DNA of 42,232 nt from Eubacteriales bacterium (GTDB taxonomy: Bacteria > Bacillota > Clostridia > Oscillospirales > JAAYXM01). The position numbers and the translations under genes are program-made. The notes beneath the pieces were generated by a model. The model did no database searches and was not told where the DNA came from. It saw only the letters and a list, made by a program, of their open reading frames with translations. The stretch lies in the NCBI GenBank assembly GCA_045533555.1, contig JAZSHZ010000094.1, positions 1-42,232 of the forward strand, in the 5' to 3' direction. This document shows, piece after piece, positions 1-14,579 of the stretch. Position 1 is the first letter of the stretch. The number at the start of each line of letters is the position of its first letter.

Positions 1-13
1 AAAAACTTAGCCG

Positions 14-42
14 TTGCAATAAAAGTGAACTTATGATAAAAT
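14..42 (+). promoter_or_regulatory. sigma-A promoter for proB
   Basis: TTGCAA(14-19), 17-bp spacer, TAAAAT(37-42), with TG extended -10 at 34-35. Confidence 0.6.
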
Positions 43-75
43 ATATTGAATTAAGAAAAAAGGCAGGATAAAGAA

Positions 76-867
76 ATGCTTAAACCTGAAAACATAAAAA
101 GAATAGTCATCAAAATAGGAACATCGACGCTCACCCACAGAACGGGAAGGCTTGATCTTCGCCATCTGGAGACTCTTGCGCGAGTCCTTTCCGATATAAA
201 GAATATGGGGCTCGATGTCGTGCTTGTCACATCCGGAGCAATCGGTGTCGGTATGTCAAAACTCGGAATGACCGTTCGTCCGAAGGAGCTTCGCTATAAG
301 CAGGCGGCGGCATCCGGAGGTCAGTGCGAGCTTATGCACATATACGGTAAATTCTTTCTCGACTATTCGCAGGTTGTCGGTCAGATTCTTATAACGAAGA
401 GCGATATCGTCGAAGAAAACCGCCGCGAAAAGGTTGAGAATACCTTTGAAGCGCTCTTTGAGCTCGGTGCAATACCTGTTGTAAACGGAAATGATACCAC
501 GGGTGTCGATGAAATTCTCTTTGGCGATAACGACACTCTTTCGGCAGAGGTTGCGGCGCTTGTGGGCGCAGACCTTCTTGTCATATTCTCGGATATAGAC
601 GGACTTTACGATTCCGACCCGCGCGAAAATGAGGATGCAAAGCTCATCAGGCGAGTAACGGAGATAAATGATGAAATTCGCGCGCTTGCGGGCGGAGCGG
701 GAACGAAGCTCGGAACGGGCGGAATGGTGACGAAGATTCACGCCGCAGAGGTGTGCTTTGAAAACGATGTCCCGATGGTAATAACGAACGGAGCGGAGCT
801 TGAGAGCGTCTATGACATTCTTGCAGGAAGCGTTCCCGGAACTCTCTTTATGAAAGAGGAGAAATGA
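76..867 (+). CDS. proB: glutamate 5-kinase (short form, no PUA domain)
   Basis: IVIKIGTSTL, VTSGAI, NGNDT, FGDNDTLSA and GTGGMVTK amino-acid-kinase motifs; 263 aa. Confidence 0.95.
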   Translation: MLKPENIKRIVIKIGTSTLTHRTGRLDLRHLETLARVLSDIKNMGLDVVLVTSGAIGVGMSKLGMTVRPKELRYKQAAASGGQCELMHIYGKFFLDYSQVVGQILITKSDIVEENRREKVENTFEALFELGAIPVVNGNDTTGVDEILFGDNDTLSAEVAALVGADLLVIFSDIDGLYDSDPRENEDAKLIRRVTEINDEIRALAGGAGTKLGTGGMVTKIHAAEVCFENDVPMVITNGAELESVYDILAGSVPGTLFMKEEK

Positions 868-868
868 T

Positions 869-1684
869 ATGTCTTCATTCATATGCCCCGTGTGTCACAC
901 GGGGCTTTTGAAAAACGAAAAAACTTATGTATGTAAAAACGGGCATAGCTTCGATATTGCAAAAAAGGGCTATGTCAATCTCCTTATGTCTCAGGCGGGC
1001 GGTCAACACGGTGACGACAAGACGATGATCGCCGCCCGCGCAGATTTTCTCAATCGCGGCTTTTATGACAAACTTTCCGAAAAAATATCGGAGCTTGTTT
1101 TTGAAAACACAGGTGACGGAGCGAGAGTTCTCGATGCAGGCTGCGGCGAATGCAAATATACCGCAGATATTCTCGAATATCTCGGGAGCAAGGGAAAAAA
1201 CGCCGAGGTCATCGGAATTGATATTTCAAAGGAAGCGCTCGGCTATGCAAAAAGAAGGACGAATAAACTGAGCCTCGCGGTTGCATCATGCGCCGATATG
1301 CCGATTGCGGATGAAAGTGTCGATGTTCTCATAAACATTTTTGCGCCGTTTTCGGCAAAAGAGTTTAGCAGAGTGTTGAAAAAAGATGGAGTTATACTCC
1401 GCGTATACCCTCTTGCGAAGCATCTGTGGGAATTAAAAGAGCTTATCTATGATGTACCGTATGAAAACCCCGAGACGGATATGGAAGAAGAATTCTTCTC
1501 CGTCGAGGAGCGGCGTGAGGTAAGATATGAAATGAATTTTGAGACGAACGAGGATATAATGAGTCTCTTCAAAATGACACCCTATTTCTACCGCACGGGC
1601 GATGAGGACAAGAAAAAGCTTGAGAGCGCACAAAGCCTTCTCTGCCGCGCGGAATTCGGCATAGTTGTTTACAGGAAGAAATAA
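869..1684 (+). CDS. rlmA: RlmA-like 23S rRNA guanine-N1 methyltransferase
   Basis: N-terminal CPVC...CKNGHSFDIAKKGYVNLL zinc finger; LDAGCGE SAM-binding motif; MTPY near the C-terminus. Confidence 0.85.
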   Translation: MSSFICPVCHTGLLKNEKTYVCKNGHSFDIAKKGYVNLLMSQAGGQHGDDKTMIAARADFLNRGFYDKLSEKISELVFENTGDGARVLDAGCGECKYTADILEYLGSKGKNAEVIGIDISKEALGYAKRRTNKLSLAVASCADMPIADESVDVLINIFAPFSAKEFSRVLKKDGVILRVYPLAKHLWELKELIYDVPYENPETDMEEEFFSVEERREVRYEMNFETNEDIMSLFKMTPYFYRTGDEDKKKLESAQSLLCRAEFGIVVYRKK

Positions 1685-1690
1685 TCAACC

Positions 1691-1728
1691 AAGCTCGCGG
1701 AAAGATCCCGCGAGCTTGTTTTTATTTT
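1691..1728 (+). terminator. rho-independent terminator after rlmA
   Basis: AAGCTCGCGG/CCGCGAGCTT stem followed by GTTTTTATTTT. Confidence 0.85.
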
Positions 1729-1731
1729 CCC

Positions 1732-1760
1732 TTGACAAAGCCTATCCCATATACTACAAT
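1732..1760 (+). promoter_or_regulatory. near-consensus sigma-A promoter at the head of the AT-rich cassette array
   Basis: TTGACA(1732-1737), 17 bp, TACAAT(1755-1760). Confidence 0.75.
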
Positions 1761-1836
1761 GAAATTGACAAACAAATAACGAAAAAGAAGAAACGAAGCC
1801 ATAGATGCAATTGATGAAATAAAACAGGGGGTAGTT

Positions 1837-2412
1837 ATGAAGTATTTTAAACGTATAACTTGTGTGGTCAGTGTTTTGGTTTTTGTTGTTCTTTTTGCTT
1901 GTGCGATGAATGATCAATTTGATATAGCACAAAGGATAAAGGTGGCAACATATGATGTTAAAATAGAAAATGATGTCGTGAATCTGAGTAGTGTTTTGGT
2001 AGACAACGGAACTACATATGTTCCGTTGAGGGAGCTTTGTTGGGAACTGGGATATTACGCTAATTGGGAGCAGGAAAATTGGGCGGTAAATATATTTCCG
2101 TATGAATCAAAAAAGATTAATGTTTCTCCGACAACGAAATTAAAAGATGAAGGTGTGATTCCCGATAAAGAAACGGCATTGACGGTTGGTAAGGCAATAT
2201 TGGAGAAATATGCAGAAAAAAATTTGGAATATGAAAATGAAGAGGCTATTTATAAATTGGATGCAACGTATTTGGAGAATGAAGAAGCTTGGTTGGTAAT
2301 TCAAATATTTACTTTTAAAAATCCTTCAAGCGGAGGCGGAGCAGATCCTAACTATTTTCCGCAGATTAAACTTAATAAACACACAGGGGAAGTATTGTAT
2401 ATAAATGTATAA
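1837..2412 (+). CDS. secreted/membrane-anchored protein: copper-amine-oxidase-N-like (stalk) domain + NTF2-fold (YbbC/YhhH-like) immunity domain
   Basis: hydrophobic N-terminus; TTYVPLRELCWELGY stalk-type motif; GVIPDKETALTVGKAIL...W.V...GG..P.IKLNKHTGEVL resembles Rhs-associated YbbC/YhhH immunity proteins; AT-rich. Confidence 0.65.
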   Translation: MKYFKRITCVVSVLVFVVLFACAMNDQFDIAQRIKVATYDVKIENDVVNLSSVLVDNGTTYVPLRELCWELGYYANWEQENWAVNIFPYESKKINVSPTTKLKDEGVIPDKETALTVGKAILEKYAEKNLEYENEEAIYKLDATYLENEEAWLVIQIFTFKNPSSGGGADPNYFPQIKLNKHTGEVLYINV

Positions 2413-2430
2413 TACGGAGCAATTTGCAAT

Positions 2431-2563
2431 GACAGTGGGGGCGTACGTTCTTTGTCAACACTTCAAAGTCGGAAAATATTGCGCGAAACGGGCAGAGCAG
2501 AGCCCTGCCCTTACGGCGTGGCGGAAACCGCACTGTAAACGCAGAACGACATCGCCGAATGTC
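2431..2563. repeat. degenerate inter-cassette element: diverged left arm, REP-like hairpin, diverged right arm
   Basis: GACAGTGGGGGCGTACGTTCTTTGTC (2431-2456); hairpin GGGCAGAGCAGAGCCCTGCCCTTAC (2490-2514); AGAACGACATCGCCGAATGTC (2543-2563). The arms only loosely resemble those at 3352-3440. Confidence 0.45.
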
Positions 2564-2604
2564 GATACATTCAAATATAACGGCTAAGGGAGGGTGAGTT
2601 AAAA

Positions 2605-3315
2605 GTGCACAAGCGAAAAGTATTAGTGTTTGTATTTCTCGGATTGATTGTTATTGGGCTATTTGTTTTTGGTGAACAAGAATTCATCCAACCTTTTCAA
2701 TTGTCGATTTATCCAATGCGAATAGCTGGAGATAATTCATTTTGCTGTATTGATGTGAAAGAAAATGGGGAACTCACTGTAAGTGCCGGCGAACAGTACA
2801 TAAATGATAACTATCAGCTTGTCAACAACATAGACGGTGTTTTTTGGAGGGGGAAATTATCCCAACATAAGATATCAAAAATAAATAAACTTCTTGCAAA
2901 ATTAGAAACATGTGAAGAACACAACGAAATCGATATACTCATTGAGGGGCGCGCTTCGGATTATTTCAAATTGCTCTTTAATGGGAAAGAATACAAAACT
3001 ATTGTTTGGTTTGAAAAAACAGACCCCGGTCAAGAATATAGGACGGATAGCAACTACGTAATACAAATGTTAGGATATGAACTGTGTGAAGACATTCCTT
3101 TCAATGGACGGGACAGTGAATGGTGGAAGTGGTATTCTCAAAATATGATAATGGCACGCGATAAATTTGAACATGTGTATAAGCCGTTGTTGGGTGAATG
3201 GGATGTTTCAGTATGGAAAACCAACATAGGACACGAATTTATTGTGGAGCAATTTTCCGAGAGTGAGCGAGTTGAAAGACCCATTGAGAACATTTGCGTC
3301 AAAGATGCGATTTGA
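2605..3315 (+). CDS. hypothetical protein with N-terminal membrane anchor (cassette gene)
   Basis: GTG start with GGAGGG RBS; 236-aa ORF; one N-terminal hydrophobic helix; AT-rich; no recognisable family. Confidence 0.7.
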   Translation: MHKRKVLVFVFLGLIVIGLFVFGEQEFIQPFQLSIYPMRIAGDNSFCCIDVKENGELTVSAGEQYINDNYQLVNNIDGVFWRGKLSQHKISKINKLLAKLETCEEHNEIDILIEGRASDYFKLLFNGKEYKTIVWFEKTDPGQEYRTDSNYVIQMLGYELCEDIPFNGRDSEWWKWYSQNMIMARDKFEHVYKPLLGEWDVSVWKTNIGHEFIVEQFSESERVERPIENICVKDAI

Positions 3316-3351
3316 AGAAAAGGATGGTTGATTTGAGAATAAGGCAAGAAA

Positions 3352-3440
3352 GACAAGAGGACGGTTCTGCTGTCTTGACAAACGAATAACCTAAATCAAG
3401 CAGTAGGGCGGCAAACACAATAGAACCGTCCCTTTGTGTC
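3352..3440. repeat. ~89-bp MITE/REPIN-like element with imperfect terminal inverted repeats
   Basis: GGACGGTTCT (3359-3368) and AGAACCGTCC (3422-3431) are exact inverted copies inside GAC...GTC ends; each half recurs separately at 4140-4176 and 4908-4968. Confidence 0.85.
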
Positions 3441-3524
3441 AGAGAGGAGTTTCGGCAGAAGATAGTTGGGAAAATCCATCTGAATATGTTCTACGGTGAC
3501 ACGATTAGAATGAGGTGCTTTTTG

Positions 3525-4058
3525 ATGAAAACTAAAATTTTGCTGTTGATATCAAGTGTTTTTTATGGTGCAATTTGGTGTGTGTTCTTTACTGTATTGA
3601 CTGTCGCCTATAACGAAGGGGTTCTGTCTGTGTTTCAGGATTCATTTGGAAAAGGATTTTCTGTTCTCGCGGTAATTGTACTTATTCTGTCATTGACTTC
3701 GATTATATATTTGCGCTTTTTCATAAAGAGTGTAAAGAAGGTTCATATCATTTCGTATGTGCTAACAGTGACAGTTATGATGGCGGGATTTGTATTGGTT
3801 ATTGTGGGTGATAAGAAATTCGAAGAGTTTTCAACCGAAAAGTGGATTAAATATCCAGAGAGACGTATGACTATGTACTTCGATCTGATTGAAAAAAATG
3901 ATATTGTAGGATACACATACAGTCAAGTTGAATCTTTATTAGGACAACCAGATTACATTACAAAAGAGGAAATGTATGTTTACGATGATAAACATGGAAA
4001 TGAGGTGTATTTGAAGTTTGACAATGGAAAAGTAGAATTTGTTAATTATGCGGAATAA
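3525..4058 (+). CDS. three-TM membrane protein with C-terminal SmpA/BamE-like domain (cassette gene)
   Basis: ATG at 3525 with GAGGTG RBS, preferred over 3486; three hydrophobic segments, then FSTEKW...R...VGYTYSQVESLLGQPD...Y.Y....LKFDNGKV. Confidence 0.7.
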   Translation: MKTKILLLISSVFYGAIWCVFFTVLTVAYNEGVLSVFQDSFGKGFSVLAVIVLILSLTSIIYLRFFIKSVKKVHIISYVLTVTVMMAGFVLVIVGDKKFEEFSTEKWIKYPERRMTMYFDLIEKNDIVGYTYSQVESLLGQPDYITKEEMYVYDDKHGNEVYLKFDNGKVEFVNYAE

Positions 4059-4104
4059 GACAAGTGTGAGCCGTTTGGGGATGGACATTTTTGACACTAT
4101 TTTG

Positions 4105-4176
4105 AGGGCGGTGGCGAAACCGCCGCCCTTTACCCTCCGAGGGCGGCAAACACAATAGAACCGTCCCTTTGTGTCA
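4105..4176. repeat. REP-like hairpin plus right arm of the inter-cassette element
   Basis: AGGGCGGTGG/CCGCCGCCCT hairpin ending in TTAC (4105-4133); 4140-4176 is identical over 37 bp to 3405-3441. Confidence 0.85.
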
Positions 4177-4402
4177 AACGGACAGCATTAAAGAATTAAA
4201 AAATGCAACATCAGTATCTATTGGTGGAGGATTTGGAACAATTGGAGCAAGCATGGAATCTTCGGGAAACTATGTAACAGTTGCAGGTTCAGTAACCGAG
4301 GGCTTAAAGGGAATATTGCCTCCGGAAGTAAACTATGGATACTATGCCACTCTGAATGGTTCAATAACGATTTTCGAATTCTTGAATGAAAAGGAGAAAT
4401 AA
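4177..4402 (+). pseudogene. 5'-truncated gene fragment, possibly a polymorphic-toxin C-terminal tail
   Basis: the only start (TTG 4169) lies inside the repeat arm; Gly/Ser-rich beta-type sequence (SVSIGGGFGTIGASMESSG); its 3' end carries the AAGGAG RBS of the next gene, which starts 2 bp after the stop. Confidence 0.5.
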
Positions 4403-4404
4403 AT

Positions 4405-4908
4405 ATGAAAATGTATACCTGCAATTCGACGAAAGCAGCTTTTCTCAAAAGATTGAATGCGAATACAGGAGAATATAAAAAGGATAAGATTTATATAAAT
4501 ATGAATTTCAATGATAAAGAAGAAATTCTGTCTCACATCAGCGAAAACTCATTTCTGTTATATCCTTATTTCAGGAAGTTTTTGTTTTTTCTGCCTCCGA
4601 AAGCTTTTTGCTGTAAAATCGAAGAATCAGAAAGTGGCATCAATATAAGCGGAATGCTCAAGTTCACACGGGAAGTTGTTTCACAAATCATTACTAGTAT
4701 GTTAGTAATTATAATCGCCTTAATTAGCGCATATGTTAAAAGTTGGCACAATTTTGAAATTGAAGAAACCGCATTCATGTGTTTGGGTATTTGTTTGTTC
4801 TTCTTTTCTGTTATGGTTGTAGCATTTAACATATATTCTTGTTTATTCAAAAAGGAATATGAAAAGATATATGTTTTTTTATTAAAGTTGGCTGAGTCTT
4901 TTGAATAA
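4405..4908 (+). CDS. two-TM membrane protein, possible immunity protein (cassette gene)
   Basis: AAGGAG RBS; soluble N-terminal domain, then two TM helices; very AT-rich; stop codon abuts the next repeat arm. Confidence 0.7.
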   Translation: MKMYTCNSTKAAFLKRLNANTGEYKKDKIYINMNFNDKEEILSHISENSFLLYPYFRKFLFFLPPKAFCCKIEESESGINISGMLKFTREVVSQIITSMLVIIIALISAYVKSWHNFEIEETAFMCLGICLFFFSVMVVAFNIYSCLFKKEYEKIYVFLLKLAESFE

Positions 4909-4988
4909 CACAAAAGGACGGTTCTGTTGTGTTGACAAACGAATAACCTAAATCAAGAAAAAGGGCGGTAGCAAGCCTGCCGCCCTAC
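4908..4988. repeat. left arm of the inter-cassette element plus REP-like hairpin
   Basis: AGGACGGTTCTG and TTGACAAACGAATAACCTAAATCAAG (4932-4957, identical to 3375-3400); hairpin AGGGCGGTAG/CTGCCGCCCT ending in AC (4962-4988). Confidence 0.85.
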
Positions 4989-4992
4989 GTTC

Positions 4993-5418
4993 GTCATTCC
5001 GAGCAAGGCGCGCAATCTCTGCCTCGTTTTGTCATCTCGAGCGGAACGAAGTGTAGTCGAGGGATCTCTCCACTACGTCAAAGCTCTCCTTATGGCTCGT
5101 TTTTGACTGATCGCAAAAAGCTTCGCCTTATCGGAGGCTTCTCCTCTTTCCCATAAAGCAGGCTTTATGGGAGCCCTTATTTTCGCTTCAGTCGAGATGA
5201 CAAGGTGGAGAGTCTGCACCATACCTTGTAGGGGACGGCGTCCCCGACGTCCCGCGTTAACCAACCGACCTGCGGGCAAGGTGAAACCCATCGTAGGGGC
5301 GATTCACGAATCGCCCGCAGGTAGCAATATTCTTCCCCTACGACCGATGACGGAATTTGCGCGGAGGCGGCGGAACGGAGAGACCTCTTTGAGATTTCTT
5401 GACTACGCTCGAAATGAC
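4993..5418. repeat. nested cluster of palindromic REP/MITE-like elements
   Basis: outer IR GTCATTCCGAGC(4993-5004)/GCTCGAAATGAC(5407-5418); inner perfect IR TTGTCATCTCGA(5029-5040)/TCGAGATGACAA(5192-5203); GTAG-headed hairpins at 5228-5253 and 5293-5316. Confidence 0.75.
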
Positions 5419-5471
5419 AAAAAGGTGCTGGAAATAACTCGGGAGAGATTGTTTTTTTCGATACACCCCCG

Positions 5472-5511
5472 AAAAAAATGAGCGCGGAATTTTTCCGCGC
5501 TCATTGCTTTT
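5472..5511. terminator. bidirectional rho-independent terminator
   Basis: AATGAGCGCGGAA/TTCCGCGCTCATT stem, A-run on the left and T-rich on the right, between convergent units. Confidence 0.8.
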
Positions 5512-5515
5512 ATAT

Positions 5516-5680
5516 TTATTTCTTCTTAAAAATGCCGAGAAGCTTTGCGAGGCCTTTCGGTTCATCCTTTTTCGGATAGAACGTCACTTTATCCTCTTTC
5601 GGAAGCTTTTCTCCGCATTTCGGGCAGAAATTCATAAAGTTTTCGTTGAATTCAGTTTTGCACTTTTTGCAGTTTACCAT
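5516..5680 (-). CDS. 54-aa zinc-ribbon protein (not in the ORF track)
   Basis: manual translation MVNCKKCKTEFNENFMNFCPKCGEKLPKEDKVTFYPKKDEPKGLAKLLGIFKKK*; CxxC...FCPKCG; GAGGT RBS at 5688-5692; own promoter and terminator. Confidence 0.8.
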   Translation of the reverse strand: MVNCKKCKTEFNENFMNFCPKCGEKLPKEDKVTFYPKKDEPKGLAKLLGIFKKK

Positions 5681-5713
5681 TAAGATGACCTCGTTTCGGA
5701 ATAATCTAATTTA

Positions 5714-5742
5714 AAAATATCACAAAATCCGCCGTTTGTCAA
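5714..5742 (-). promoter_or_regulatory. sigma-A promoter for the small zinc-ribbon gene
   Basis: minus strand TTGACA (5742-5737), 17 bp, TATTTT (5719-5714), with TG extension. Confidence 0.55.
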
Positions 5743-5745
5743 CAA

Positions 5746-7059
5746 TTATCCCATAGGAGGAACGGGAATGGGACGGGTTTTATCGAAAACTGTGTTGACG
5801 TCAAATAGATCCGAAAGCCAATCGCGGTTGTCGTTTATCATATCGTAGTACATTCGGTAGCCATCAAGGTTTCGTCTGCCCTGACGGACGTAGCCGTTGC
5901 CGATCTGGAGCCATGCGCGGTTTCCGTCAACGTTGCAGAAATAATCAAAGCCGACGCTCTTGAGGAAGACGAAGCGCTCATTTGCACCGGTATATTTTTT
6001 CCAGTTTTCAATGTCCGCACCGAAGGGGTAGATGAGGATGTCCGTGTCGCCGATAATGGTCTCGACTTCGTTTTCCCAGCGCATTGTGTCCGTTTTGAGG
6101 TTTTCCATCGCCATTGTGCCCATATTTCTGTGACCCCAGCTGTGGCTTGCGAATTCCCATCCGTTTTCGCGGAGATTCTTTGCAACGGCTTTTGCCGCTT
6201 CGACATCATCTGCATATGTAGGATTATCGGAATATGAGGGGCAGGTGCGATAGCCGAGAACACCCTCATAGCCTGTCAGCGCAAGGATTCCCTTTGCACC
6301 GTGGTAGCTGAAATCGGGATGCTCCTCAACGAACTTGTCAAGCAGAGGGACAACGTCAAAATCGCCCGTTATGACGCTTCCGTCGTCCTGCTTCATCTCG
6401 CAGGTGGGCTTTCCGTCCTCACCGATGACGATTCTTGATGCAAAGCCGTCGCCATCCATATATTCATAATAGCAGACATCGTCGACCGAGAGGACAAACG
6501 GGCGCTTTCCCTCGGGAAGCATAATCTTTCCGGGTGTGACCGTGCCGTCGTCATTGACCGTCGCAATGTCGTGAAGCGAGACGAGGACATAGCCGCGCTC
6601 GTGCATCTGGCGCATCATCTCGTTGAACTCCGCAACGGTCGTCATAACCTGATTATACCCCGCTTCGGTGTATTCCCCGTCGAATGCCTTTGATGTGTCG
6701 GCAATAAGCGAATGGAAAAAGACGTGGGGAATCTCATAGAGGTCCGCCGCTACAAGGCTTTCCTTTGTTTTGGTTATCTCCTCGCGGATGGTGACCGCCT
6801 CCTCCGAGGTATAATCGGCAATAAGCGAAAGCGCCTCGTCATAGTCATATTTTTCGGAAAGAAGAGAGGCATAGCGAAGATTTATCTTCTCAAGCGCCGC
6901 GGAGACCTCCTCCGATGCCTTTATAAGAGCGGGGTTTACCCCGTCCTTCGGAAGAAGGAGCAGAACCGCGGCGACAGCGACTGCAATAACTGCCGCGATG
7001 CCTGCGATTATCCGGATTTTCGTTTTGCTCCGAAGTGCCGAGCCGCCATATATCTTCAT
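5746..7059 (-). CDS. membrane-anchored polysaccharide deacetylase (CE4/NodB family)
   Basis: N-terminal TM; HVFFHSL, LSVDD, FASHSWGH and IYPFG motifs. Confidence 0.85.
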   Translation of the reverse strand: MKIYGGSALRSKTKIRIIAGIAAVIAVAVAAVLLLLPKDGVNPALIKASEEVSAALEKINLRYASLLSEKYDYDEALSLIADYTSEEAVTIREEITKTKESLVAADLYEIPHVFFHSLIADTSKAFDGEYTEAGYNQVMTTVAEFNEMMRQMHERGYVLVSLHDIATVNDDGTVTPGKIMLPEGKRPFVLSVDDVCYYEYMDGDGFASRIVIGEDGKPTCEMKQDDGSVITGDFDVVPLLDKFVEEHPDFSYHGAKGILALTGYEGVLGYRTCPSYSDNPTYADDVEAAKAVAKNLRENGWEFASHSWGHRNMGTMAMENLKTDTMRWENEVETIIGDTDILIYPFGADIENWKKYTGANERFVFLKSVGFDYFCNVDGNRAWLQIGNGYVRQGRRNLDGYRMYYDMINDNRDWLSDLFDVNTVFDKTRPIPVPPMG

Positions 7060-7101
7060 ATCATTCGATCCCCCATAACGACAAATTTCGACTTTTTCTT
7101 T

Positions 7102-7130
7102 AGTATATCAAGCAAAAATAAATAAGTCAA
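7102..7130 (-). promoter_or_regulatory. sigma-A promoter for the deacetylase gene
   Basis: minus strand TTGACT, 17 bp, TATACT, with TG extension. Confidence 0.65.
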
Positions 7131-7225
7131 ATTACAATCCGTTAACAAAAAATTAAAATGGAAATAATATGAATATATAGAAAAATTTTTTCCGTTGTGC
7201 TACAATGGAAGCGGAGGGGATTTTT

Positions 7226-8353
7226 ATGTCGGATTGTTTTGAATATCTTGACTGGAGAGGGGACCTCAGCTTTGAGGCGGATCCGTTCAACGAGATAGAC
7301 GGAATGCTTCTCTCCCGAATTTCATATATGCCCTTTGAGCTTATCGGCGAGAGCGGTGCAATAACCGTCGGGAGAGCATGCGAGAAATTCATGTCCATCC
7401 CGAATATCGAGGAAAAGCTTCTCGTCAAGGGCGATATGAAGCTTATCGAGCATATGGCAAACAGCCCGAGGTTTGGAAACCTTAAGATAATAGACTATGA
7501 AAACCGCCGCGAGGAAAAGAGTGAGACGCAGTTTTCCGCGGTCACCTTTCCGCTGGGGAATTTCAGATATTATGTCGCCTTCCGAGGCACGGATGAGACG
7601 ATCGTCGGTTGGAAAGAGGATTTCAATATGAGTTTCACGACTCCCGTCCCCGCGCAGGAGATGGCTGTCGAATATTTTGAAAGAGTCGCCTCGCGCCTTC
7701 GCGGAAAGTTCATAGTCGGCGGTCATTCAAAGGGCGGAAATCTCGCGGTCTATGCCGCCGCATTCTGCTCTCCGCGCCTTCGTGCAAAGATTCTCAAGGT
7801 GCAGAATTTCGATGGGCCGGGGTTTGATTCGAAAGTGTTCCTGACTCCGGGCTACCGCGCGATCCTCCCGAGGATCGAGACGTATATCCCCGAATCCTCG
7901 ATCATCGGTATGCTCCTTGACCATAAGGAGGAATATAAAATCGTCAAAAGCCGAAATCTCGGCATCTTCCAGCACGACACATATTCCTGGGAGCTTTCGC
8001 GCAACCGCTTCGTCTATGTCGATACCGTGAGCGATTCGAGCAAATTCATCGATGATGCGCTTAAGGAATGGCTCACCTCCGTCACCCCCGAGACGAGGGA
8101 GCTGCTCGTCGATACGCTTTATGATATCTTCAATGAGATGAATGTCAAAACCGTCAAGGAGCTTGCCGAAAAGCCACTTCTCAATGCGGTATCCGCTCTT
8201 CGCGCGATAAGAAATATCGACCCGGAAACGCGCAAGACGGTCAATGTTGCGCTTCGCGCCCTTGCAAAAAGCGCAAAGACGGTATATGACGAAAACAGAG
8301 CAAATAAGGAGACAGAAAAAGAGGATAAGGATAATGAAAAAATTGGATTTTAA
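7226..8353 (+). CDS. DUF2974 (Mbeg1-like) alpha/beta hydrolase
   Basis: YLDWRGDLSF, AFRGTD..IVGWKEDF, GHSKGGNLA nucleophile elbow, FDGPGF, QH; ATG at 7226 has a GGAGG RBS. Confidence 0.85.
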   Translation: MSDCFEYLDWRGDLSFEADPFNEIDGMLLSRISYMPFELIGESGAITVGRACEKFMSIPNIEEKLLVKGDMKLIEHMANSPRFGNLKIIDYENRREEKSETQFSAVTFPLGNFRYYVAFRGTDETIVGWKEDFNMSFTTPVPAQEMAVEYFERVASRLRGKFIVGGHSKGGNLAVYAAAFCSPRLRAKILKVQNFDGPGFDSKVFLTPGYRAILPRIETYIPESSIIGMLLDHKEEYKIVKSRNLGIFQHDTYSWELSRNRFVYVDTVSDSSKFIDDALKEWLTSVTPETRELLVDTLYDIFNEMNVKTVKELAEKPLLNAVSALRAIRNIDPETRKTVNVALRALAKSAKTVYDENRANKETEKEDKDNEKIGF

Positions 8354-9131
8354 CGAAAAACACGGCTTCATATGTGATATGGACGGCGTTATATACCATG
8401 GCAACAGAATTTTGCCGGGTGTTCCCGAATTTATAGATTGGCTTCACCGAGAGAAAAAGGAGTTCCTTTTTCTGACAAACAACAGCGGCTACACAAGGCG
8501 CGAGCTTCAGTATAAGCTTTCAAGAATGGGGCTTGAGGTCGGCGAGGAGCATTTCTACACAAGCGCCCTTGCGACGGCGGCATTTCTCAAAGAGCAGGCT
8601 CCCGGTTGCTCGGTATATGCAATCGGCGAGGCGGGGCTTCTCAATGCGCTCTATGATGCGGGTATAACGATGAATGACCAAAATCCCGATTACGTCGTCG
8701 TCGGTGAAGGTAAGACCTATTCGCTCGACAGTCTAACAAAGGCGACGAATCTCGTTCTTCGCGGTGCGAAGCTCATCGGCGCGAACTCCGATGTTTCGGG
8801 CCCGATCGAAGATGGAATAGCTCCCGCCTGCGGAGCGCTCGTCGCTCCGGTCGAGATTGCGACGGGGACTCATGCCTACTTCTGCGGAAAGCCGAATCCG
8901 CTTATGATGAGAACGGGTCTCCGCATCCTCGGCTGCCATTCTGCAGATGCCGTCATGATTGGCGACAGAATGGACACCGATGTCATATCGGGTCTTGAGA
9001 GCGGCATGTCGACGGTGCTCGTCCTTTCGGGAGTATCGACGGAGGAAACCCTCAGATCCTATGCTTACAGACCGTCGATAGTCCTCGGCGGAGTCGGTGA
9101 TATCGTCAGAATGGCAGAGGGTAACCGATAA
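8334..9131 (+). CDS. HAD-IIA family phosphatase (NagD-like)
   Basis: DMDGVIY, LTNN, GKPNP and IGDRMDTD motifs; start moved to ATG 8334, overlapping the upstream gene end. Confidence 0.9.
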   Translation: MKKLDFNEKHGFICDMDGVIYHGNRILPGVPEFIDWLHREKKEFLFLTNNSGYTRRELQYKLSRMGLEVGEEHFYTSALATAAFLKEQAPGCSVYAIGEAGLLNALYDAGITMNDQNPDYVVVGEGKTYSLDSLTKATNLVLRGAKLIGANSDVSGPIEDGIAPACGALVAPVEIATGTHAYFCGKPNPLMMRTGLRILGCHSADAVMIGDRMDTDVISGLESGMSTVLVLSGVSTEETLRSYAYRPSIVLGGVGDIVRMAEGNR

Positions 9132-11295: not shown

Positions 11296-12723
11296 ATGCG
11301 CCGTCACCCGATGAGCCTGCGCCACCGCTGGATGGCAAACAACTTAATATATCTGTCGCTCATCGTCGGCATATGCATTGTTCTTTTCTCCGTCTCCGCG
11401 ATGAATTATTTCTATATGAATGTCAGAACGGGGCTTACAAACAGCGCAAACATCAGCGCGCGCTATTTCAGCGAGGATCTGACCTCGAGCGTCGATTCCT
11501 TCTATCGCAATGCAAAGCGTCAGCTCGCATCGGGCGGAAGAAACGAGAATGTCGAATGCCAGATACTTTTTGCAAACGGCAGAGTCGTTCTTTCTTCAAT
11601 GGGTCTCCCCGCGGGGATGATGCCCGAAAGCCCGGATATATCCGAGGCGGTGCAGAGCGGGATGACGGCAAACTTCGTCGGTCGCGATGCGCTGACGGGA
11701 GAGAGAATAATGAGCGTTTCAAGTCCGCTCATATCGGGCGAGAGCGAGGTTATCGGAGTCGTCAGATATGTGACGAGCCTCCGGAAGATAGACAGAAGGC
11801 TTTTCATTCAGTTCATCGCATCCCTTGCGATAGGCGCGATACTGATGCTCATCGTCTTCATCTCGAATAAATATTTTCTGCGCTCTGTCATATCTCCGCT
11901 TGCGGAGGTCACAGCCATATCGAAGAAGATATCCGCGGGAAGCTATGGCGTAACGATAGATAAAAAATATGAGGACGAAATCGGCGAGCTCGTCGATTCG
12001 ATAAACGAAATGTCCGCCGAAATCGCAAAAGCGGATAAGATCAAAAACGAGTTCATCTCCTCTGTTTCCCACGAGCTGAGAACGCCGCTCACGGCAATCA
12101 TCGGCTGGGGCGAGACGCTGACGGCGGTCGGCTTTGAAAACAAGGAAGCGGCAAGCCGCGGAATCGAAATCATCTTAAAGGAAACGAGAAGACTTTCAAA
12201 AATGGTCGAGGAGCTTCTCGATTTTGCGAGGATGGAGAGCGGCAGGTTTACGCTCTATGTTGATACGGTCAATCTGAAGGCGGAATTTGAAGAGACGCTT
12301 TTCATGTATGCGGACACGATAAAGAAAGCAAACGTCGCGATGAATTATGAGCAGGATGATGAGGATGAAATCTTCATCAGCGGCGATCGCGAAAGGCTCA
12401 AGCAGGTTTTCTTCAATATTCTCGACAATGCGCTCAAGCACGGCGGCGAGGGTGAGAAGATAGATATCTCCGTAAAGCGCGAGGGAAGGCTTGCGAAAAT
12501 CAGGATAAGAGACTATGGCGCGGGCATTCCGGAGGATGAACTTCCGTATGTCAAGGTCAAGTTCTATAAAGGAAAATCCAAGGCGCAGGGAAGCGGCATC
12601 GGTCTTGCCGTCAGCGATGAGATTGTCAATCTCCACGGCGGAGAGCTCGATATCTCAAGCGAGGTCGGAAAAGGCACGGAGGTAACGATAACCCTGCCGA
12701 TAAAGGAAACAGAGGAAGAATAA
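11296..12723 (+). CDS. HAMP-domain sensor histidine kinase
   Basis: two TMs, HAMP, SHELRTPLT H-box, N/G1/F/G2 boxes; ATG 11296 follows AAGGAG (track start 11266). Confidence 0.93.
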   Translation: MRRHPMSLRHRWMANNLIYLSLIVGICIVLFSVSAMNYFYMNVRTGLTNSANISARYFSEDLTSSVDSFYRNAKRQLASGGRNENVECQILFANGRVVLSSMGLPAGMMPESPDISEAVQSGMTANFVGRDALTGERIMSVSSPLISGESEVIGVVRYVTSLRKIDRRLFIQFIASLAIGAILMLIVFISNKYFLRSVISPLAEVTAISKKISAGSYGVTIDKKYEDEIGELVDSINEMSAEIAKADKIKNEFISSVSHELRTPLTAIIGWGETLTAVGFENKEAASRGIEIILKETRRLSKMVEELLDFARMESGRFTLYVDTVNLKAEFEETLFMYADTIKKANVAMNYEQDDEDEIFISGDRERLKQVFFNILDNALKHGGEGEKIDISVKREGRLAKIRIRDYGAGIPEDELPYVKVKFYKGKSKAQGSGIGLAVSDEIVNLHGGELDISSEVGKGTEVTITLPIKETEEE

Positions 12724-12741
12724 AGAAAGGTGCAGAACAAA

Positions 12742-13677
12742 ATGGGTAATTGCAAGAAAACGTCGATTGGCGGTCAGGCGCTTATCGAGGGAATTATGAT
12801 GCTCGGCCCCGAAAAGAGCGCGATAGCCGTCCGCAAGGAAAACGGCGAAATTGAGCTCAAGGTCGAGAAGATAACGAAGATGACGGATAAATATAAAATT
12901 CTCGGGATTCCGTTCATCCGCGGAATATTCGGGTTGTTTGAATCATTGAAGCGAGGCTTTTCGGCGCTCAGCTATGCATCGTCCATAGCGATAAGCGAGA
13001 TAGACGAAGAGCCGACGAAGTTTGAAAAATGGCTTGAGAAAAAATTCGGAAGCCGCGCGGTCGAAAACATCGTCATGGGAATTGCGACGGTCTTCGGAAT
13101 AGCGATTCCGATTCTTCTGTTCATTCTTTTGCCGACGCTTCTTGCGGGGACGATCGATAAGCTCGGTCTTCCGAATCTTCTCCGCAATCTCATTGAAGGC
13201 GTTCTTCGCGTAATTATCTTTTTGATATTTATGTTCTCCGTTTCGAGAATGAAGGATATGAAGCGCGTGTTCGCGTATCACGGAGCAGAGCATAAATCCA
13301 TCTTCTGCTATGAGGCGGGAGAGGAACTCACGGTTGAAAACGTCAGAAAGTTTTCAAAAGAGCATCCCCGTTGCGGAACGAGCTTTATGTTCTCGGTTAT
13401 GGTCATAAGCGTCCTCGTCTTTTCGGTTGTAAGTTGGTCAAACCCGTTCATCCGAATGGGGCTCAGGCTTGCGCTTCTTCCCGTCGTCGTCGGCATAAGC
13501 TATGAGGTCAACCGCTTCATCGGCCGCCATGACAATTGGTTCACGAGAATAATCCGCGCTCCCGGTCTCTGGTTCCAGACGTTTACGACGTTTGAGCCGG
13601 ATGACGGGATGATCGAAATCGCGATAGCCGCGCTCCGCGAGGTCATTCCCGAAGATAAGGAATCCGATAACTGGTAA
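12742..13677 (+). CDS. DUF1385 (YqhQ-like) membrane protein
   Basis: IGGQALIEGIMM, YHGAEHK and HPRCGTSF motifs; usual neighbour of prmC. Confidence 0.9.
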   Translation: MGNCKKTSIGGQALIEGIMMLGPEKSAIAVRKENGEIELKVEKITKMTDKYKILGIPFIRGIFGLFESLKRGFSALSYASSIAISEIDEEPTKFEKWLEKKFGSRAVENIVMGIATVFGIAIPILLFILLPTLLAGTIDKLGLPNLLRNLIEGVLRVIIFLIFMFSVSRMKDMKRVFAYHGAEHKSIFCYEAGEELTVENVRKFSKEHPRCGTSFMFSVMVISVLVFSVVSWSNPFIRMGLRLALLPVVVGISYEVNRFIGRHDNWFTRIIRAPGLWFQTFTTFEPDDGMIEIAIAALREVIPEDKESDNW

Positions 13678-13699
13678 TCTGTTTGCGAGGTAGTTTGAA

Positions 13700-14548
13700 T
13701 TGTTTACGACATATAACGATGTTTATCTTGATACAAGAAGAAAATTTGTTTCGGGCAAAATCTCAATGCCGGATCTTGAAGCATCGGAGATTCTTCTCCA
13801 TGTGACGGGGAAAAGCCGCGAGGAATTCGTCCGCGATAAATATCTCCATGCGTCGACGAGTGTCGCAATCGGTGCGGCAAAGCTTGCGGAGAGAAGGCTT
13901 GCGGGCGAGCCGCTCGCATATATTCTCGGCGAATGGGATTTCTATGGAGTGAGGCTCAAGGTCACGCCCGATGTCCTCATCCCGCGCTCGGATACGGAGG
14001 CGCTTGTCGATTGTGCGCTCCGGAGAACGAGCGGAGCTTTCCGCTTCCTTGATCTCGGTTGCGGAAGCGGCTGCGTCGGAATCGCGCTCAGCGTTATGCG
14101 AGAGGGCGCACGAGGAGTCCTTTCCGATATTTCGGATGCGGCTCTTGCCGTCGCAAAGGAAAATGTCTATGGTGCGAAGCTCTCCTCACGCATATCCTGC
14201 ATAAAGGCGGATATGACGAAGGAGCCGCCGCAGAATCTCGGAAAATTTGACCTTATCGTTTCCAATCCGCCCTATATAACGAGCGCGGAGATGGAAGCGC
14301 TTGACAAATCCGTCGTGGATTATGAGCCGAAGGGCGCATTGTGGGGCGGTGAAGACGGGCTTGATTTCTATCGCGAGATCTGCAAAAACTGGACCTGCGC
14401 CCTCAATGACGGCGGCGTTCTCGCATTTGAATGCGGAATCGCGCAGTCGGGAGCGCTTGAAGGAATTCTCTATGAATTCGGAATGAAGAGCATACAGACC
14501 TCGCGGGATACATCGGGCGCAAACCGCGTCGTATCCTGCATAAAATAA
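13700..14548 (+). CDS. prmC: release factor glutamine methyltransferase
   Basis: GEPLAYILG, VLIPRSDTE, LDLGCGSG, VSNPPY. Confidence 0.93.
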   Translation: MFTTYNDVYLDTRRKFVSGKISMPDLEASEILLHVTGKSREEFVRDKYLHASTSVAIGAAKLAERRLAGEPLAYILGEWDFYGVRLKVTPDVLIPRSDTEALVDCALRRTSGAFRFLDLGCGSGCVGIALSVMREGARGVLSDISDAALAVAKENVYGAKLSSRISCIKADMTKEPPQNLGKFDLIVSNPPYITSAEMEALDKSVVDYEPKGALWGGEDGLDFYREICKNWTCALNDGGVLAFECGIAQSGALEGILYEFGMKSIQTSRDTSGANRVVSCIK

Positions 14549-14579
14549 AAAAACCAATAAAAAGGAGTGTATATAATCT

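What the first reader, a model, noticed from the sequence alone, without database searches (positions are those of the whole stretch)
1732..4990. Repeat-delimited, integron-like array of immunity-like gene cassettes with no integrase in view
Seen: between a terminator (1691-1728) and a repeat cluster, four unrelated AT-rich co-oriented genes sit behind one TTGACA-17-TACAAT promoter. Every junction carries parts of one element: a left arm (GGACGGTTCT...TTGACAAACGAATAACCTAAATCAAG; 3352-3400, 4908-4957), a GC hairpin ending CC(T)TAC (2490, 4105, 4962), and a right arm (37 bp identical at 3405-3441 and 4140-4176). The left arm at 4908 abuts a stop codon, and GACAAG, the start of the 3352 arm, directly follows the stop at 4058. 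Known: integrons and Bacteroidales recombinase-associated immunity arrays share this logic; GTAG-headed hairpins are substrates of HUH-type RAYT transposases. The arms do not look like attC sites to me. Inference: a gene-capture or shuffling platform for surface immunity genes, serviced in trans.
Basis: partly seen in the sequence, partly recalled or inferred. Interest (0 to 1): 0.85.

Follow-up and report, generated by a model that had tools for sequence, protein, structure and literature searches.

The report
Rhs immunity island with REP hairpins
This is the remains of a bacterial contact-toxin (Rhs) locus that kept its antidote genes and lost its toxins, and the repeats between the genes are small hairpin elements of a known selfish-DNA type (REP/RAYT), not an integron-like gene-capture device.

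Summary

- **The island:** window 1732-4990 is about 35% GC against about 50% in the flanks. It is a decayed Rhs polymorphic-toxin locus.
  - In sister genome G015 the same rlmA-to-Zn-ribbon site holds an RHS-repeat toxin. It is followed by the ortholog of gene 2, then an orphan Rhs fragment with its own immunity gene.
  - Six other genus genomes have rlmA directly next to the neighbouring gene.
  - The window keeps a 40-nt Rhs remnant (2550-2589). ORF 4169-4402 matches the last 75 residues of an Rhs C-terminal toxin at 89% identity.
- **The arms:** they are inverted copies of one hairpin, ACAA-N-AGAACCGTCCCC-TTGT.
  - The outer stem covaries.
  - The hairpin brackets 250-aa RAYT-like Y1 transposase genes, with the left copy abutting their TTGACA box.
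- **This genome:** no such transposase was found, only a 30-aa remnant.
- **Integron test:** no attC core motifs and no nearby integrase.

Verdict: new member of known kinds, moderate interest.

The parts
1690..1728 (+). Intrinsic terminator of the rlmA-like gene (869-1684); left border of the island
   Evidence: 11-13 bp stem at 1690-1718, then TTTTTATTTT.
1732..1793 (+). Island promoter TTGACA-17-TACAAT (1732-1760) plus leader TTGACAAACAAATAAC (1765-1793, a B-like module)
   Evidence: 11 of 12 consensus positions; the same promoter and leader head five other loci of this genome (C63, C281, C303, C57, C169). Three of those run into Rhs or YD-repeat coding sequence.
1837..2412 (+). Gene 1, a 191-aa lipoprotein-like protein with a Cu_amine_oxidN1 stretch; function not established
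   Evidence: PF07833, E 1.3e-5; a 35%-identical paralog closes the C303 Rhs island; only a weak lead (score 0.75) to PepSY/Cu_amine_oxidN1 proteins.
2435..2460 (+). Degenerate C module (GGGGGCGTACGTTCTTTGTCAAC), a second REP type
   Evidence: In L038 the intact C-type repeat flanks a second RAYT-like paralog on both sides.
2490..2535 (+). Two GC hairpins; the first ends CCCTTAC
   Evidence: Read directly from the sequence.
2550..2589 (+). Remnant of Rhs coding sequence (...SPNVDTFKYNG, then a stop). The rest of the toxin gene is deleted up to 21 nt before gene 2.
   Evidence: 85% identity to G015:C34:2269-2308; that stretch lies inside the G015 orphan Rhs frame. ORF 2405-2587 ends in this peptide.
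2605..3315 (+). Gene 2, a 236-aa probable immunity protein for a Peptidase_M91-type Rhs C-terminal toxin
   Evidence: its 85%-identical ortholog in G015 starts 7 nt after the stop of an Rhs reading frame; the last 150 residues of that frame match PF14891 at E 3.3e-13. No Pfam family matches gene 2 itself.
3350..3441 (.). Complete REP doublet (REPIN-like): A arm 3350-3376, B spacer with TTGACA 3375-3400, E arm 3405-3441
   Evidence: D1, D3, I6; as single-stranded DNA it folds at -15.3 kcal/mol, z -3.5, matched by 0 of 200 shuffles; the A arm abutting TTGACA is the layout found at RAYT-like genes.
3486..4058 (+). Gene 3, a 190-aa membrane protein (likelier start at 3525) with a possible BamE-like C-terminal domain; immunity role inferred from position only
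   Evidence: nearest clusters are Bacillota hypothetical proteins (0.94); PF04355 is on 20% of one cluster; distant paralogs on C101.
4059..4176 (.). Junction made of an A-arm stub GACAAG (4059-4064), C module (4070-4097), D hairpin (4105-4139) and E arm (4140-4176)
   Evidence: 4122-4175 is 100% identical over 54 nt to C303:2886-2833.
4169..4402 (+). 3' remnant of an Rhs C-terminal toxin domain, cut off at the outer edge of the E arm; not an intact gene
   Evidence: 89% identity over 97% of its length to the last 75 residues of P0001 (176 aa). P0001 begins with the Rhs core end ...NNPVMYVDSNGEW; the frame runs back through the arm with no plausible start.
4405..4908 (+). Gene 5, a 167-aa membrane protein; probable cognate immunity of the truncated toxin
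   Evidence: It starts 2 nt after the remnant's stop. No family found. The role is inferred from position.
4907..4990 (.). Terminal junction made of A arm (4907-4933), B (4932-4957) and D' hairpin (4961-4990; GTAG-headed when read on the minus strand)
   Evidence: -16 kcal/mol, z -4.3; the same A+B+D' order follows the gene 2 ortholog in G015. D copies occur in the islands of C63, C155, C170, C281 and C303.
4991..5460 (.). Cluster of other, genome-wide REP-like hairpins; right border of the island
   Evidence: 69 of the 113 BLAST rows are copies of the unit at 5217-5261, on many contigs; depth 250-480 in this bin against 0-10 in the other bins.

Best explanation
**What it is.** The interval is a decayed Rhs (YD-repeat) polymorphic-toxin locus inserted between rlmA and a Zn-ribbon gene. 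One strong sigma-70-type promoter heads a run of immunity-type genes. Their toxin genes have been deleted or truncated, so the island now most likely only protects the cell against Rhs toxins of kin and competitors. That protective role is inferred.

**What the arms are.** The repeated arms are not cassette recombination sites. They are REP-type hairpins with a 7-bp covarying stem and a conserved 13-nt loop, AGAACCGTCCCC. They belong to a family that in other Bacillota brackets a 250-aa RAYT-like HUH/Y1 transposase gene.
- The left arm plus TTGACA corresponds to the left REP plus the -35 box of that transposase's promoter.
- The right arm corresponds to the right REP.
- The unit at 3350-3441 is a transposase-less inverted doublet (REPIN-like).
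- The C module is the REP of a second paralog.

**How the present layout probably arose (inferred).** Doublets settled between, and once inside, the toxin/immunity modules. Recombination between repeat copies then removed toxin segments. This left the order immunity gene, doublet, toxin 3' stub, immunity gene.

**Current state.** No cognate transposase was found in this genome. The copies are therefore either relics or depend on an enzyme missing from the assembly.
For: **Rhs context**
- Empty or different sites: in 6 of the 13 fetched genus loci (G002, G004, G005, G006, G014, G016) rlmA is followed directly by the Zn-ribbon or lipase-like gene.
- G015 layout: rlmA, the same leader motif, an ORF of at least 1187 aa with a signal peptide, the gene 2 ortholog, A+B+D', a 386-aa orphan Rhs fragment, a 164-aa ORF, then the Zn-ribbon gene.
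- G015 protein families: RHS_repeat at E 2.1e-19 on the long ORF. A Peptidase_M91 toxin end at E 3.3e-13 on the C-terminal piece, which lies on a second contig. The orphan fragment also matches M91, at E 3.3e-12.
- Window remnants: 2550-2589 and 4169-4402.
- The genome's only two Rhs core domains lie in sister islands on C303 and C281 that carry the same repeats.

**REP/RAYT identity of the arms**
- Stem covariation: the three pairs outside the fixed ACAA/TTGT are Watson-Crick in 125, 115 and 100 of 139 unique copies. The shuffle maxima were 69, 79 and 63. All four pair types occur.
- RAYT-like ORFs lie within 2.5 kb of the motif in 10 of the 120 loci, 11 genes in all.
- Of 10 further RAYT-like genes or fragments found by protein search alone, 7 have a hairpin core within 400 nt.
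- Over all 21 genes, the nearest left core is A-type and the nearest right core is E-type in 10.
- The left hairpin abuts TTGACA at L038, L041 and L050, as in the window.
- The proteins keep an invariant N-H-x-H motif and the Y in YIHQNP.
- Their best NCBIfam match is REP-associated tyrosine transposase, at 78.8 bits against a cut-off of 80.
- Their only solved-structure match is 4ER8, TnpA-REP, at E 7e-7.
- Genome-level link in 151 genomes of the order: hairpin in 10, RAYT-like gene in 7, both in 4. The odds ratio is 31 and Fisher p is 3e-4; kin are not independent. The two genomes with many copies (G111 with 40, G115 with 10) both have the gene.
Against: **Against a purely relic or passive reading**
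- No RAYT-like gene was found in this genome or in G015.
- Even so, the four E-arm copies are 100% identical over 36-54 nt across three islands. That suggests recent spread or gene conversion rather than old relics.
- The assembly is a 317-contig MAG estimated 95% complete, so a transposase could simply be unassembled.

**Possible real link between hairpins and toxin islands**
- All 7 copies of this hairpin in the genome lie in toxin/immunity-type islands.
- An arm edge coincides with a toxin truncation point.
- In G115 two RAYT units sit in similar islands.
- A real link is therefore not excluded.

**Weaker points in the RAYT evidence**
- The bracketing is not uniform. Of the 21 genes, 1 is bracketed E...A (L148) and 3 have no core nearby.
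- The NCBIfam score is just under the cut-off.
- The single hairpins are thermodynamically weak (z -0.8 to -2.0). Their reality rests on covariation.

**Untested**
- Immunity function was not tested for any of the genes.
- Genes 1, 3 and 5 have no family support.
Confidence: 0.72

Rival explanations
1. HUH-serviced cassette platform. The hairpins would be the working boundaries of gene cassettes. A RAYT-like enzyme acting in trans would excise, insert or delete E...gene...A segments through single-stranded DNA. The array would then capture and shuffle immunity genes much as an integron does.
For: - A arms abut or closely follow stop codons (window 4908; C303 and G015 junctions).
- The outer edge of an E arm is exactly where a toxin frame is cut.
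- All 7 copies in this genome lie in such islands.
- E arms are identical across three islands.
- Two RAYT units in G115 lie in like islands, one of them also downstream of rlmA.
- RHS-type neighbours occur in 5 of the 120 motif loci (only one representative was checked with Pfam).
- One data set has contigs that join 2460 to 5031 and 4139 to 3405, at repeat modules.
Against: - No RAYT-like gene was found in this genome or in G015.
- The genes lie outside the A...E doublets that bracket the transposase.
- The left border of the gene 2 module is not at an arm.
- None of 7 further RAYT loci of the order had an Rhs-like neighbour.
- In G111 the hairpin is dispersed, with 40 copies.
- Most neighbours across the public loci are housekeeping genes.
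- The contig joints are single contigs at depth 2-3, from one data set filed twice.
Confidence: 0.12
2. Operon-internal RNA or DNA control elements. The hairpins would be kept because, in the polycistronic transcript, they act as intercistronic stabilisers or partial terminators that set the relative expression of the immunity genes. REP elements do this in enterobacterial operons (recalled).
For: - All genes are co-oriented behind one promoter, with hairpins at every junction.
- The D hairpins are GC-rich and followed by T residues.
- The doublet folds strongly (z -3.5).
Against: - The loop sequence is conserved across many Bacillota lineages next to unrelated genes, and around a transposase gene. 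That points to protein recognition of DNA rather than a local RNA role.
- No Rfam family matched any junction.
- No transcript data could be laid on the island. The only lay call went to DNA contigs.
Confidence: 0.08
3. Invertible segment. The inverted arms at 4149-4174 and 4908-4933, with 733 nt between them, would be sites of a DNA invertase that flips the gene 5 module for phase variation.
For: The arms are 92% complementary 26-nt inverted repeats flanking a gene-sized segment (I2).
Against: - No recombinase gene lies in or beside the island.
- All modules in all four islands are co-oriented.
- No opposite-strand joint was seen inside 1732-4990 in four runs. The only one was at 5322-5419, in the other repeat cluster.
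- The same hairpin is a dispersed repeat elsewhere.
Confidence: 0.02

Closest known systems
Rhs / YD-repeat polymorphic-toxin loci with orphan toxin-immunity modules (Poole et al. 2011, PMC3150448; Koskiniemi et al. 2014, PMC3967940; I saw only the search listing and the start of each abstract)
   Same: - In the sister genome, a main toxin gene with a variable C-terminal domain is followed by its immunity gene.
- Downstream orphan core fragments each have their own C-terminal domain and immunity gene.
- The locus has low GC and its content turns over quickly between relatives.
   Different: - Here the toxins are gone or truncated, and only immunity-type genes and stubs remain.
- The module junctions carry REP-type hairpin doublets instead of only core-homology segments.
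- The host is a gut member of the Bacillota, and no secretion-system gene was identified in the part of the window I examined (1-8400).
REP / REPIN-RAYT systems (Bertels and Rainey 2011, PMC3116915, listing and abstract start; Bertels et al. 2017, doi 10.1101/119735, passages read; E. coli TnpA-REP, PDB 4ER8)
   Same: - Short palindromic hairpins with covarying stems.
- Inverted doublets.
- Hairpin copies bracket a HUH/Y1 transposase gene.
- There are many extragenic copies in genomes that carry the gene.
- The 2017 paper says Group 1 RAYTs also occur in Clostridia and look more IS-like.
   Different: - The loop is long (13 nt) and is the conserved part. There is no GTAG head.
- The transposase is about 250 aa, with a C-terminal helix-turn-helix-like tail (SIRQISRLTG), and scores just under the NCBIfam cut-off.
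- In this genome the copies are few (7), confined to toxin/immunity islands, and without a transposase.
Integrons (IntI, attI, attC cassette arrays); features recalled from general knowledge
   Same: Promoterless, co-oriented, unrelated small genes sit behind one promoter, with an imperfect inverted repeat at each junction.
   Different: - There is no integrase nearby.
- No RYYYAAC or GTTRRRY core motif occurs in any of the 5 junctions.
- The junction repeat is a sequence-conserved hairpin family tied to a Y1 transposase.
Acquired interbacterial defence islands of Bacteroidales: orphan immunity arrays, some beside a recombinase (recalled; related listings 10.1101/2025.05.03.651265 and PMC10470768, abstract starts only)
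   Same: A run of immunity genes without cognate toxins, which would protect against other bacteria's toxins.
   Different: - The phylum and the toxin system differ.
- There is no adjacent recombinase.
- This array is visibly derived from a resident Rhs locus by loss of the toxins.
H-rpt (ISAs1-type) insertion sequences inside E. coli Rhs elements
   Same: Transposable-element DNA lodged at the downstream end of Rhs loci.
   Different: The transposase family differs. Here only non-autonomous hairpin repeats are present.

Membership tests
Integron | A tyrosine recombinase (IntI) gene next to the array | tested here: not met
   The PF00589 search of the whole genome found 2 genes, both on contig C2. 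No recombinase ORF lies in window 1-8400.
Integron | attC sites with RYYYAAC ... GTTRRRY core sites at cassette ends | tested here: not met
   0 matches to either motif in the 5 junction intervals. IntegronFinder itself could not be run.
Integron | Cassettes that excise as circles | not testable with these tools
   Only low-depth contigs of public runs could be laid, and no circle-type joint of an E...A unit was seen. Absence from contigs proves nothing.
REP/REPIN-RAYT system | Short palindromic repeat whose stem is kept by compensatory change | tested here: met
   Outer pairs 1-3 are Watson-Crick in 125, 115 and 100 of 139 unique copies, with four pair types, against shuffle maxima of 69, 79 and 63.
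REP/REPIN-RAYT system | Repeat copies in inverted orientation bracket a Y1/HUH transposase gene | tested here: met
   In other genomes, 10 of 21 RAYT-like genes have an A-type core as the nearest on the left and an E-type core as the nearest on the right. 18 of 21 have a core within 400 nt. Of the 10 genes found by protein search alone, 7 have one.
REP/REPIN-RAYT system | Transposase with a HUH motif and a catalytic tyrosine, related to TnpA-REP | tested here: met
   H60, H62 and Y119 are invariant in 14 sequences. PF01797 matches at E 2.5e-17. NF047646 scores 78.8 bits against a cut-off of 80, just under it. The only PDB match is 4ER8, at E 7e-7.
REP/REPIN-RAYT system | Cognate transposase present in the same genome as the repeats | tested here: not met
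   - tblastn with 8 RAYT-like proteins found only 24-30-aa C-terminal remnants, at C63:19037-19126 and C155:12610-12681.
- There were 0 matches.
- The genome's two Y1_Tnp genes are 150-aa IS200-type.
- The MAG is estimated 95% complete.
REP/REPIN-RAYT system | Many dispersed extragenic copies | tested here: inconclusive
   Met in G111 (40 copies) and G115 (10 copies). This genome has 7 copies, all in 4 islands.
Rhs polymorphic-toxin locus | RHS/YD repeats and an Rhs-associated core domain | tested here: inconclusive
   - The window itself keeps only a 40-nt remnant.
- The feature is met at the same site in G015, where RHS_repeat matches at E 2.1e-19.
- It is also met in the sister islands C303 and C281, where TIGR03696 scores 95 and 92 bits.
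Rhs polymorphic-toxin locus | A variable C-terminal toxin domain followed directly by a small immunity gene | tested here: met
   In G015 a Peptidase_M91 toxin end is followed after 7 nt by the gene 2 ortholog. In the window, the toxin stub 4169-4402 is followed after 2 nt by gene 5. Function was not assayed.
Recombinase-associated immunity arrays of Bacteroidales | An adjacent tyrosine recombinase and repeats specific to the array | tested here: not met
   There is no adjacent recombinase. The repeats are not array-specific across genomes.

The most novel reading that the evidence does not exclude
In some gut Clostridia a RAYT-like Y1 transposase and its hairpin doublets have become the working machinery of Rhs toxin/immunity loci. 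By cutting at hairpin feet on single-stranded DNA they would delete toxin segments, keep the immunity genes and move modules between islands. That would be an integron-like cassette system built on a HUH enzyme instead of a tyrosine recombinase. The identical E arms in three islands, the toxin frame cut exactly at an arm edge, and the RAYT units inside similar islands of G115 would be its traces.
Probability: 0.1. Interest if true: 0.75.

Novelty: new member of a known kind. Interest (0 to 1): 0.35.

Why it matters
**Annotation of gut Clostridia.** The finding gives a concrete reading of a type of low-GC islet that is common in MAGs of gut Clostridia. These are immunity-only remains of Rhs loci, which would shape who can kill whom in the gut community.

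**An apparently undescribed repeat family.** The work also turns up a widespread, sequence-conserved REP-type hairpin family in Bacillota, with its RAYT-like transposase.
- My searches of the held library found no description of it.
- The sequence-word search listed 20 of its 64 hits, and none of those was relevant.
- The RAYT/REPIN search led to two papers. One REP survey does not mention Firmicutes. One paper only notes that Group 1 RAYTs occur in Clostridia.

**Practical use.** Knowing this motif helps to avoid mistaking such repeats for att sites or integron-like structures.

Tried and rejected
- **Rfam.** A scan of 1-8000 at E up to 1 gave three weak hits (STnc40, Trp_leader, psRNA2). All are below their gathering scores and none lies at a junction.
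- **Metagenome scan.** The 22-nt B module gave 0 hits, so no wider set of near-identical junctions was obtained.
- **Public runs.**
  - No run holds more than 34% of the island's sampled words.
  - The contigs are short and at depth 2-6.
  - X4 and X5 gave identical figures, so they are probably one data set filed twice.
  - The variant joints (1684 to 4307, 2460 to 5031, 2518 to 5285, 4139 to 3405) are single contigs. I treat them only as a hint that island content differs between strains.
  - Parts without cover are not evidence of anything.
- **Protein Atlas.** It gave only leads for gene 1 (score 0.75) and gene 3 (Bacillota hypothetical proteins; BamE on 20% of one cluster).
- **Pfam on genes 2 and 5 and on the stub.** Nothing matched.
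- **IS21 hypothesis.** I first suspected that the 250-aa neighbour of the motif was an IS21 helper ATPase. Pfam showed it is Y1_Tnp.
- **Bacteriocin hypothesis.** I considered a double-glycine bacteriocin leader in 4169-4402. I dropped it once the frame matched the end of an Rhs toxin.
- **B module as a promoter.** B has TTGACA but no acceptable -10 box, and the scan does not list it.
- **Earlier notes of this scan.** None bore on this locus.
- **Failed script step.** The last scan in the script failed on a regular-expression slip and I did not repeat it. One search already gave that count.

Full report
**1.

- Terminator and promoter: the rlmA-like gene (869-1684; Zn_ribbon_RlmA at E 4e-16) ends in a terminator at 1690-1718. 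A TTGACA-17-TACAAT promoter follows at 1732-1760.
- ORFs: four complete co-oriented ORFs follow, at 1837-2412, 2605-3315, 3486-4058 and 4405-4908. There is also a fifth frame at 4169-4402.
- Base composition: GC is 0.31-0.40 inside the island and 0.45-0.53 outside.
- Repeats: they lie at the stated coordinates. Left arm 3350-3411 against 4907-4968 is 89% identical. Right arm 3405-3441 against 4140-4176 is 100% identical.
- Arm relationship: the two arm types are inverted copies of one 25-nt sequence (I1 and I2, 92% complementary).
- Rarity: the right arm has 4 copies in the 2.95-Mb, 317-contig genome and the left arm has 2.
- Junction modules: each junction is built from a small set of modules.
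  - A is the left arm.
  - B is TTGACAAACGAATAACC...
  - C is GCCrTTTGGGGAyGkACATTTTT...
  - D is a GC hairpin.
  - E is the right arm.
  - Different junctions carry different subsets.

**2. The genes are what is left of an Rhs toxin locus**

- Sister islands:
  - The same repeats occur in three further low-GC islets, on C63, C303 and C281. The same promoter and leader also occur there, and on C57 and C169.
  - The genome's only two Rhs-associated core domains lie in the C303 and C281 islets.
  - Behind the C57 promoter runs a YD-repeat frame.
- Relatives without the island: I fetched 13 stretches from 11 genomes of the genus.
  - In 5 genomes (G004, G005, G006, G014, G016) the order is proB, rlmA, lipase-like gene, with nothing between.
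  - In G002 the order is proB, rlmA, 68 nt, Zn-ribbon gene.
  - In G007, G008, G010 and G017 other genes follow rlmA.
- G015, whose flanks are 81% identical in DNA, has this order at the same site:
  - rlmA and the leader motif;
  - an ORF of at least 1187 aa with a signal peptide and RHS repeats (E 2.1e-19), running off its contig;
  - on a second contig, an open 429-aa C-terminal piece ending in a Peptidase_M91 effector domain (E 3.3e-13);
  - 7 nt later, the ortholog of gene 2 (85% aa identity; 92% DNA identity, including the A+B arm);
  - A+B+D';
  - a 386-aa orphan Rhs fragment, also M91 (E 3.3e-12), and a 164-aa ORF;
  - more C and D modules, and a 1079-aa RCC1-repeat protein;
  - the Zn-ribbon gene.
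  - That the two G015 contigs join into one gene is my inference.
- Gene 2 is therefore an immunity gene by position.
- First toxin remnant: upstream of gene 2, window 2550-2589 still reads ...SPNVDTFKYNG. It is 85% identical to the orphan Rhs frame of G015, and about 1.1 kb of toxin has been deleted.
- Second toxin remnant: the frame 4169-4402 matches the last 75 residues of P0001 at 89% identity. P0001 is a 176-aa metagenomic protein that starts with the Rhs core end ...NNPVMYVDSNGEW. The homology begins exactly where the E arm ends.
- Gene 5 starts 2 nt after that stub and is therefore its probable immunity gene.
- Genes 1 and 3 have only positional support.

**3. The arms are REP-type hairpins of a RAYT-like transposase family**

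- Genus level: a search of 41 relatives found variants in 3 genus genomes, one with a compensated stem change (AGACAA...TTGTCT).
- Public scan: a scan of one genome per species with ACAANAGAACCGYCCCYTTGT stopped at its 120-stretch limit. The hits include Clostridia, Syntrophomonadaceae, Desulfotomaculum, Thermoanaerobacter, Acetobacterium and a Shimazuella. There are also a few Bacteroidota and PVC records.
- Conservation pattern: the loop is constant and the stem outside ACAA/TTGT varies but stays paired. The three outer pairs are Watson-Crick in 125, 115 and 100 of 139 unique copies, against shuffle maxima of 69, 79 and 63.
- Layout of copies: many form inverted doublets 20-45 nt apart, and many sit near contig ends.
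- Neighbouring genes: I clustered 518 ORFs lying within 2.5 kb of the motif.
  - Apart from generic ABC ATPases, the most recurrent family was a 250-aa Y1_Tnp protein, with 11 genes in 10 of the 120 loci.
  - The other neighbours I checked are housekeeping genes: EF-G, IleRS, an aminotransferase and a LysR regulator.
- Bracketing by hairpins:
  - Those genes are bracketed by an A-type core on the left and an E-type core on the right.
  - Ten more RAYT-like genes or fragments were found by protein search alone. Seven of them have a core within 400 nt.
  - Over all 21, the A...E order holds in 10, the reverse order in 1, and no core is nearby in 3.
- Promoter overlap: at L038, L041 and L050 the left hairpin runs straight into the TTGACA of the transposase promoter. 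That is the A+B layout of the window.
- Second REP type: the C module flanks a second paralog in L038 on both sides.
- The proteins:
  - They keep the HUH histidines and the tyrosine of YIHQNP.
  - Their best NCBIfam match is REP-associated tyrosine transposase, at 78.8 bits against a cut-off of 80.
  - Their only PDB match is 4ER8.
- Genome-level link in 151 genomes of the order: 10 have the hairpin, 7 have the gene and 4 have both. The two genomes rich in copies (G111 with 40, G115 with 10) both have the gene. Because kin are not independent, the Fisher p of 3e-4 overstates the link.

**4. State of the system in this genome**

- No RAYT-like gene was found. Only C-terminal remnants remain, one of 30 aa at C63:19037-19126, directly behind that island's promoter, and one of 24 aa at C155:12610-12681.
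- The genome's two Y1_Tnp genes are ordinary 150-aa IS200 transposases.
- In the genus, 1 of 19 genomes (G008) has a RAYT-like gene.
- All 7 hairpin copies lie in four islands.
- The E arms are identical over 36-54 nt. This speaks for recent copying or gene conversion.
- The genes lie between doublets (E...gene...A). The transposase lies inside its pair (A...gene...E).

**5. Most likely mechanism**

- Shown: the Rhs ancestry of the site, the toxin loss, the REP/RAYT identity of the arms, and the absence of integron features.
- Inferred: how the present layout arose.
  - The ancestral layout was as in G015: immunity gene, A+B+D', Rhs fragment with toxin, immunity gene.
  - A doublet then landed inside a toxin's C-terminal coding part.
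  - Recombination between the two doublets removed the Rhs fragment and the 5' part of the toxin.
  - The result is the order seen in the window: immunity gene, A-B-(C-D)-E, toxin stub, immunity gene.
- Also inferred: the island now works as an immunity-only operon.
- Strain variation: single low-depth contigs from one public data set join 2460 to 5031, 2518 to 5285, 1684 to 4307 and 4139 to 3405. These are weak hints that strains differ in island content.

**6. Comparison with known systems**

- It works like, and descends from, an Rhs orphan-module array.
- Its repeats work like, and pass most tests for, REP/REPIN-RAYT elements.
- It fails the integron tests. There is no nearby integrase and no attC core motif in any of the 5 junctions.
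- On RAYTs in Clostridia I found only one remark, that Group 1 RAYTs occur there.
- A survey of GTAG and CGTC REP elements does not mention Firmicutes.
- Searching the hairpin letters in the paper library returned 64 papers. The 20 listed were all unrelated primer or eukaryotic hits.

**7. Verdict**

- The integron-like reading is not supported.
- The immunity-array reading and the link to HUH transposases are supported in modified form.
- It is a new member of known kinds. The possibility that these hairpins actively remodel Rhs loci remains open, and I put it at about 0.1.

Noticed in passing
window 4991-5460, especially 5217-5261: This is a different, GTAG-headed GC hairpin family. 69 of the 113 BLAST rows are copies of this unit on many contigs. 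No RAYT of any kind was found in the assembly, only two IS200-type Y1 genes (C138:5937-6293, and C205:7677-8042, which has an in-frame TGA). What spreads this family is open.
   Followed up: partly
L143 (G115:C67) 12666-16400: In a genome of another family of the same order, the rlmA ortholog (46% identity) is also followed by a low-GC islet. That islet holds a RAYT-like gene, several A- and E-type hairpins and small membrane ORFs. A second RAYT unit on the same contig follows a YD-repeat ORF and a 281-aa membrane ORF. The region downstream of rlmA may be a recurrent landing site.
   Followed up: partly
G000 contigs C263:1729-1793, C63:18970-19025, C281:32022-32079, C303:about 4340-4400 (minus), C57:about 240-300 (minus), C169:about 5730-5790 (minus): One promoter-plus-leader module (TTGACA-17-TACAAT, then AAATTGACAAAyAAATAAC) heads six loci. 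At least three of them lead into Rhs or YD coding sequence; the one on C169 leads into an unrelated gene.
   Followed up: partly
G000 C63:19037-19126 and C155:12610-12681: These are 24-30-aa remnants of the C-terminal helix-turn-helix tail of a RAYT-like protein (70% identity to L038:533-1270). Each is followed by an inverted C-type repeat. They are traces of a transposase that was once present.
   Followed up: partly
L010, L023, L030, L038, L052, L072 and others: Next to many hairpins lie tandem partial copies of the 3' half only (CCC plus the 3' stem strand, for example CCCTTGTCTTG repeated). L072 has five full hairpins in a row. I have no explanation for these half-repeats.
   Followed up: no
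window 2584-3411 against G015:C34:1278-2105: Gene 2 with its arm is 92% identical in DNA but only 85% in protein. The flanking proB-rlmA stretch is 81% identical in DNA, with proB at 95% in protein. This could mean recent transfer of the module, diversifying selection on the immunity gene, or both.
   Followed up: no
G000:C122:1-728: A second contig of the same MAG is 93% identical to window 1-728. This suggests a second strain or a duplicated piece in the bin.
   Followed up: no
runs X4 and X5: The two runs are labelled with different hosts and studies, yet they gave identical numbers in every table. They are probably one data set filed twice.
   Followed up: no
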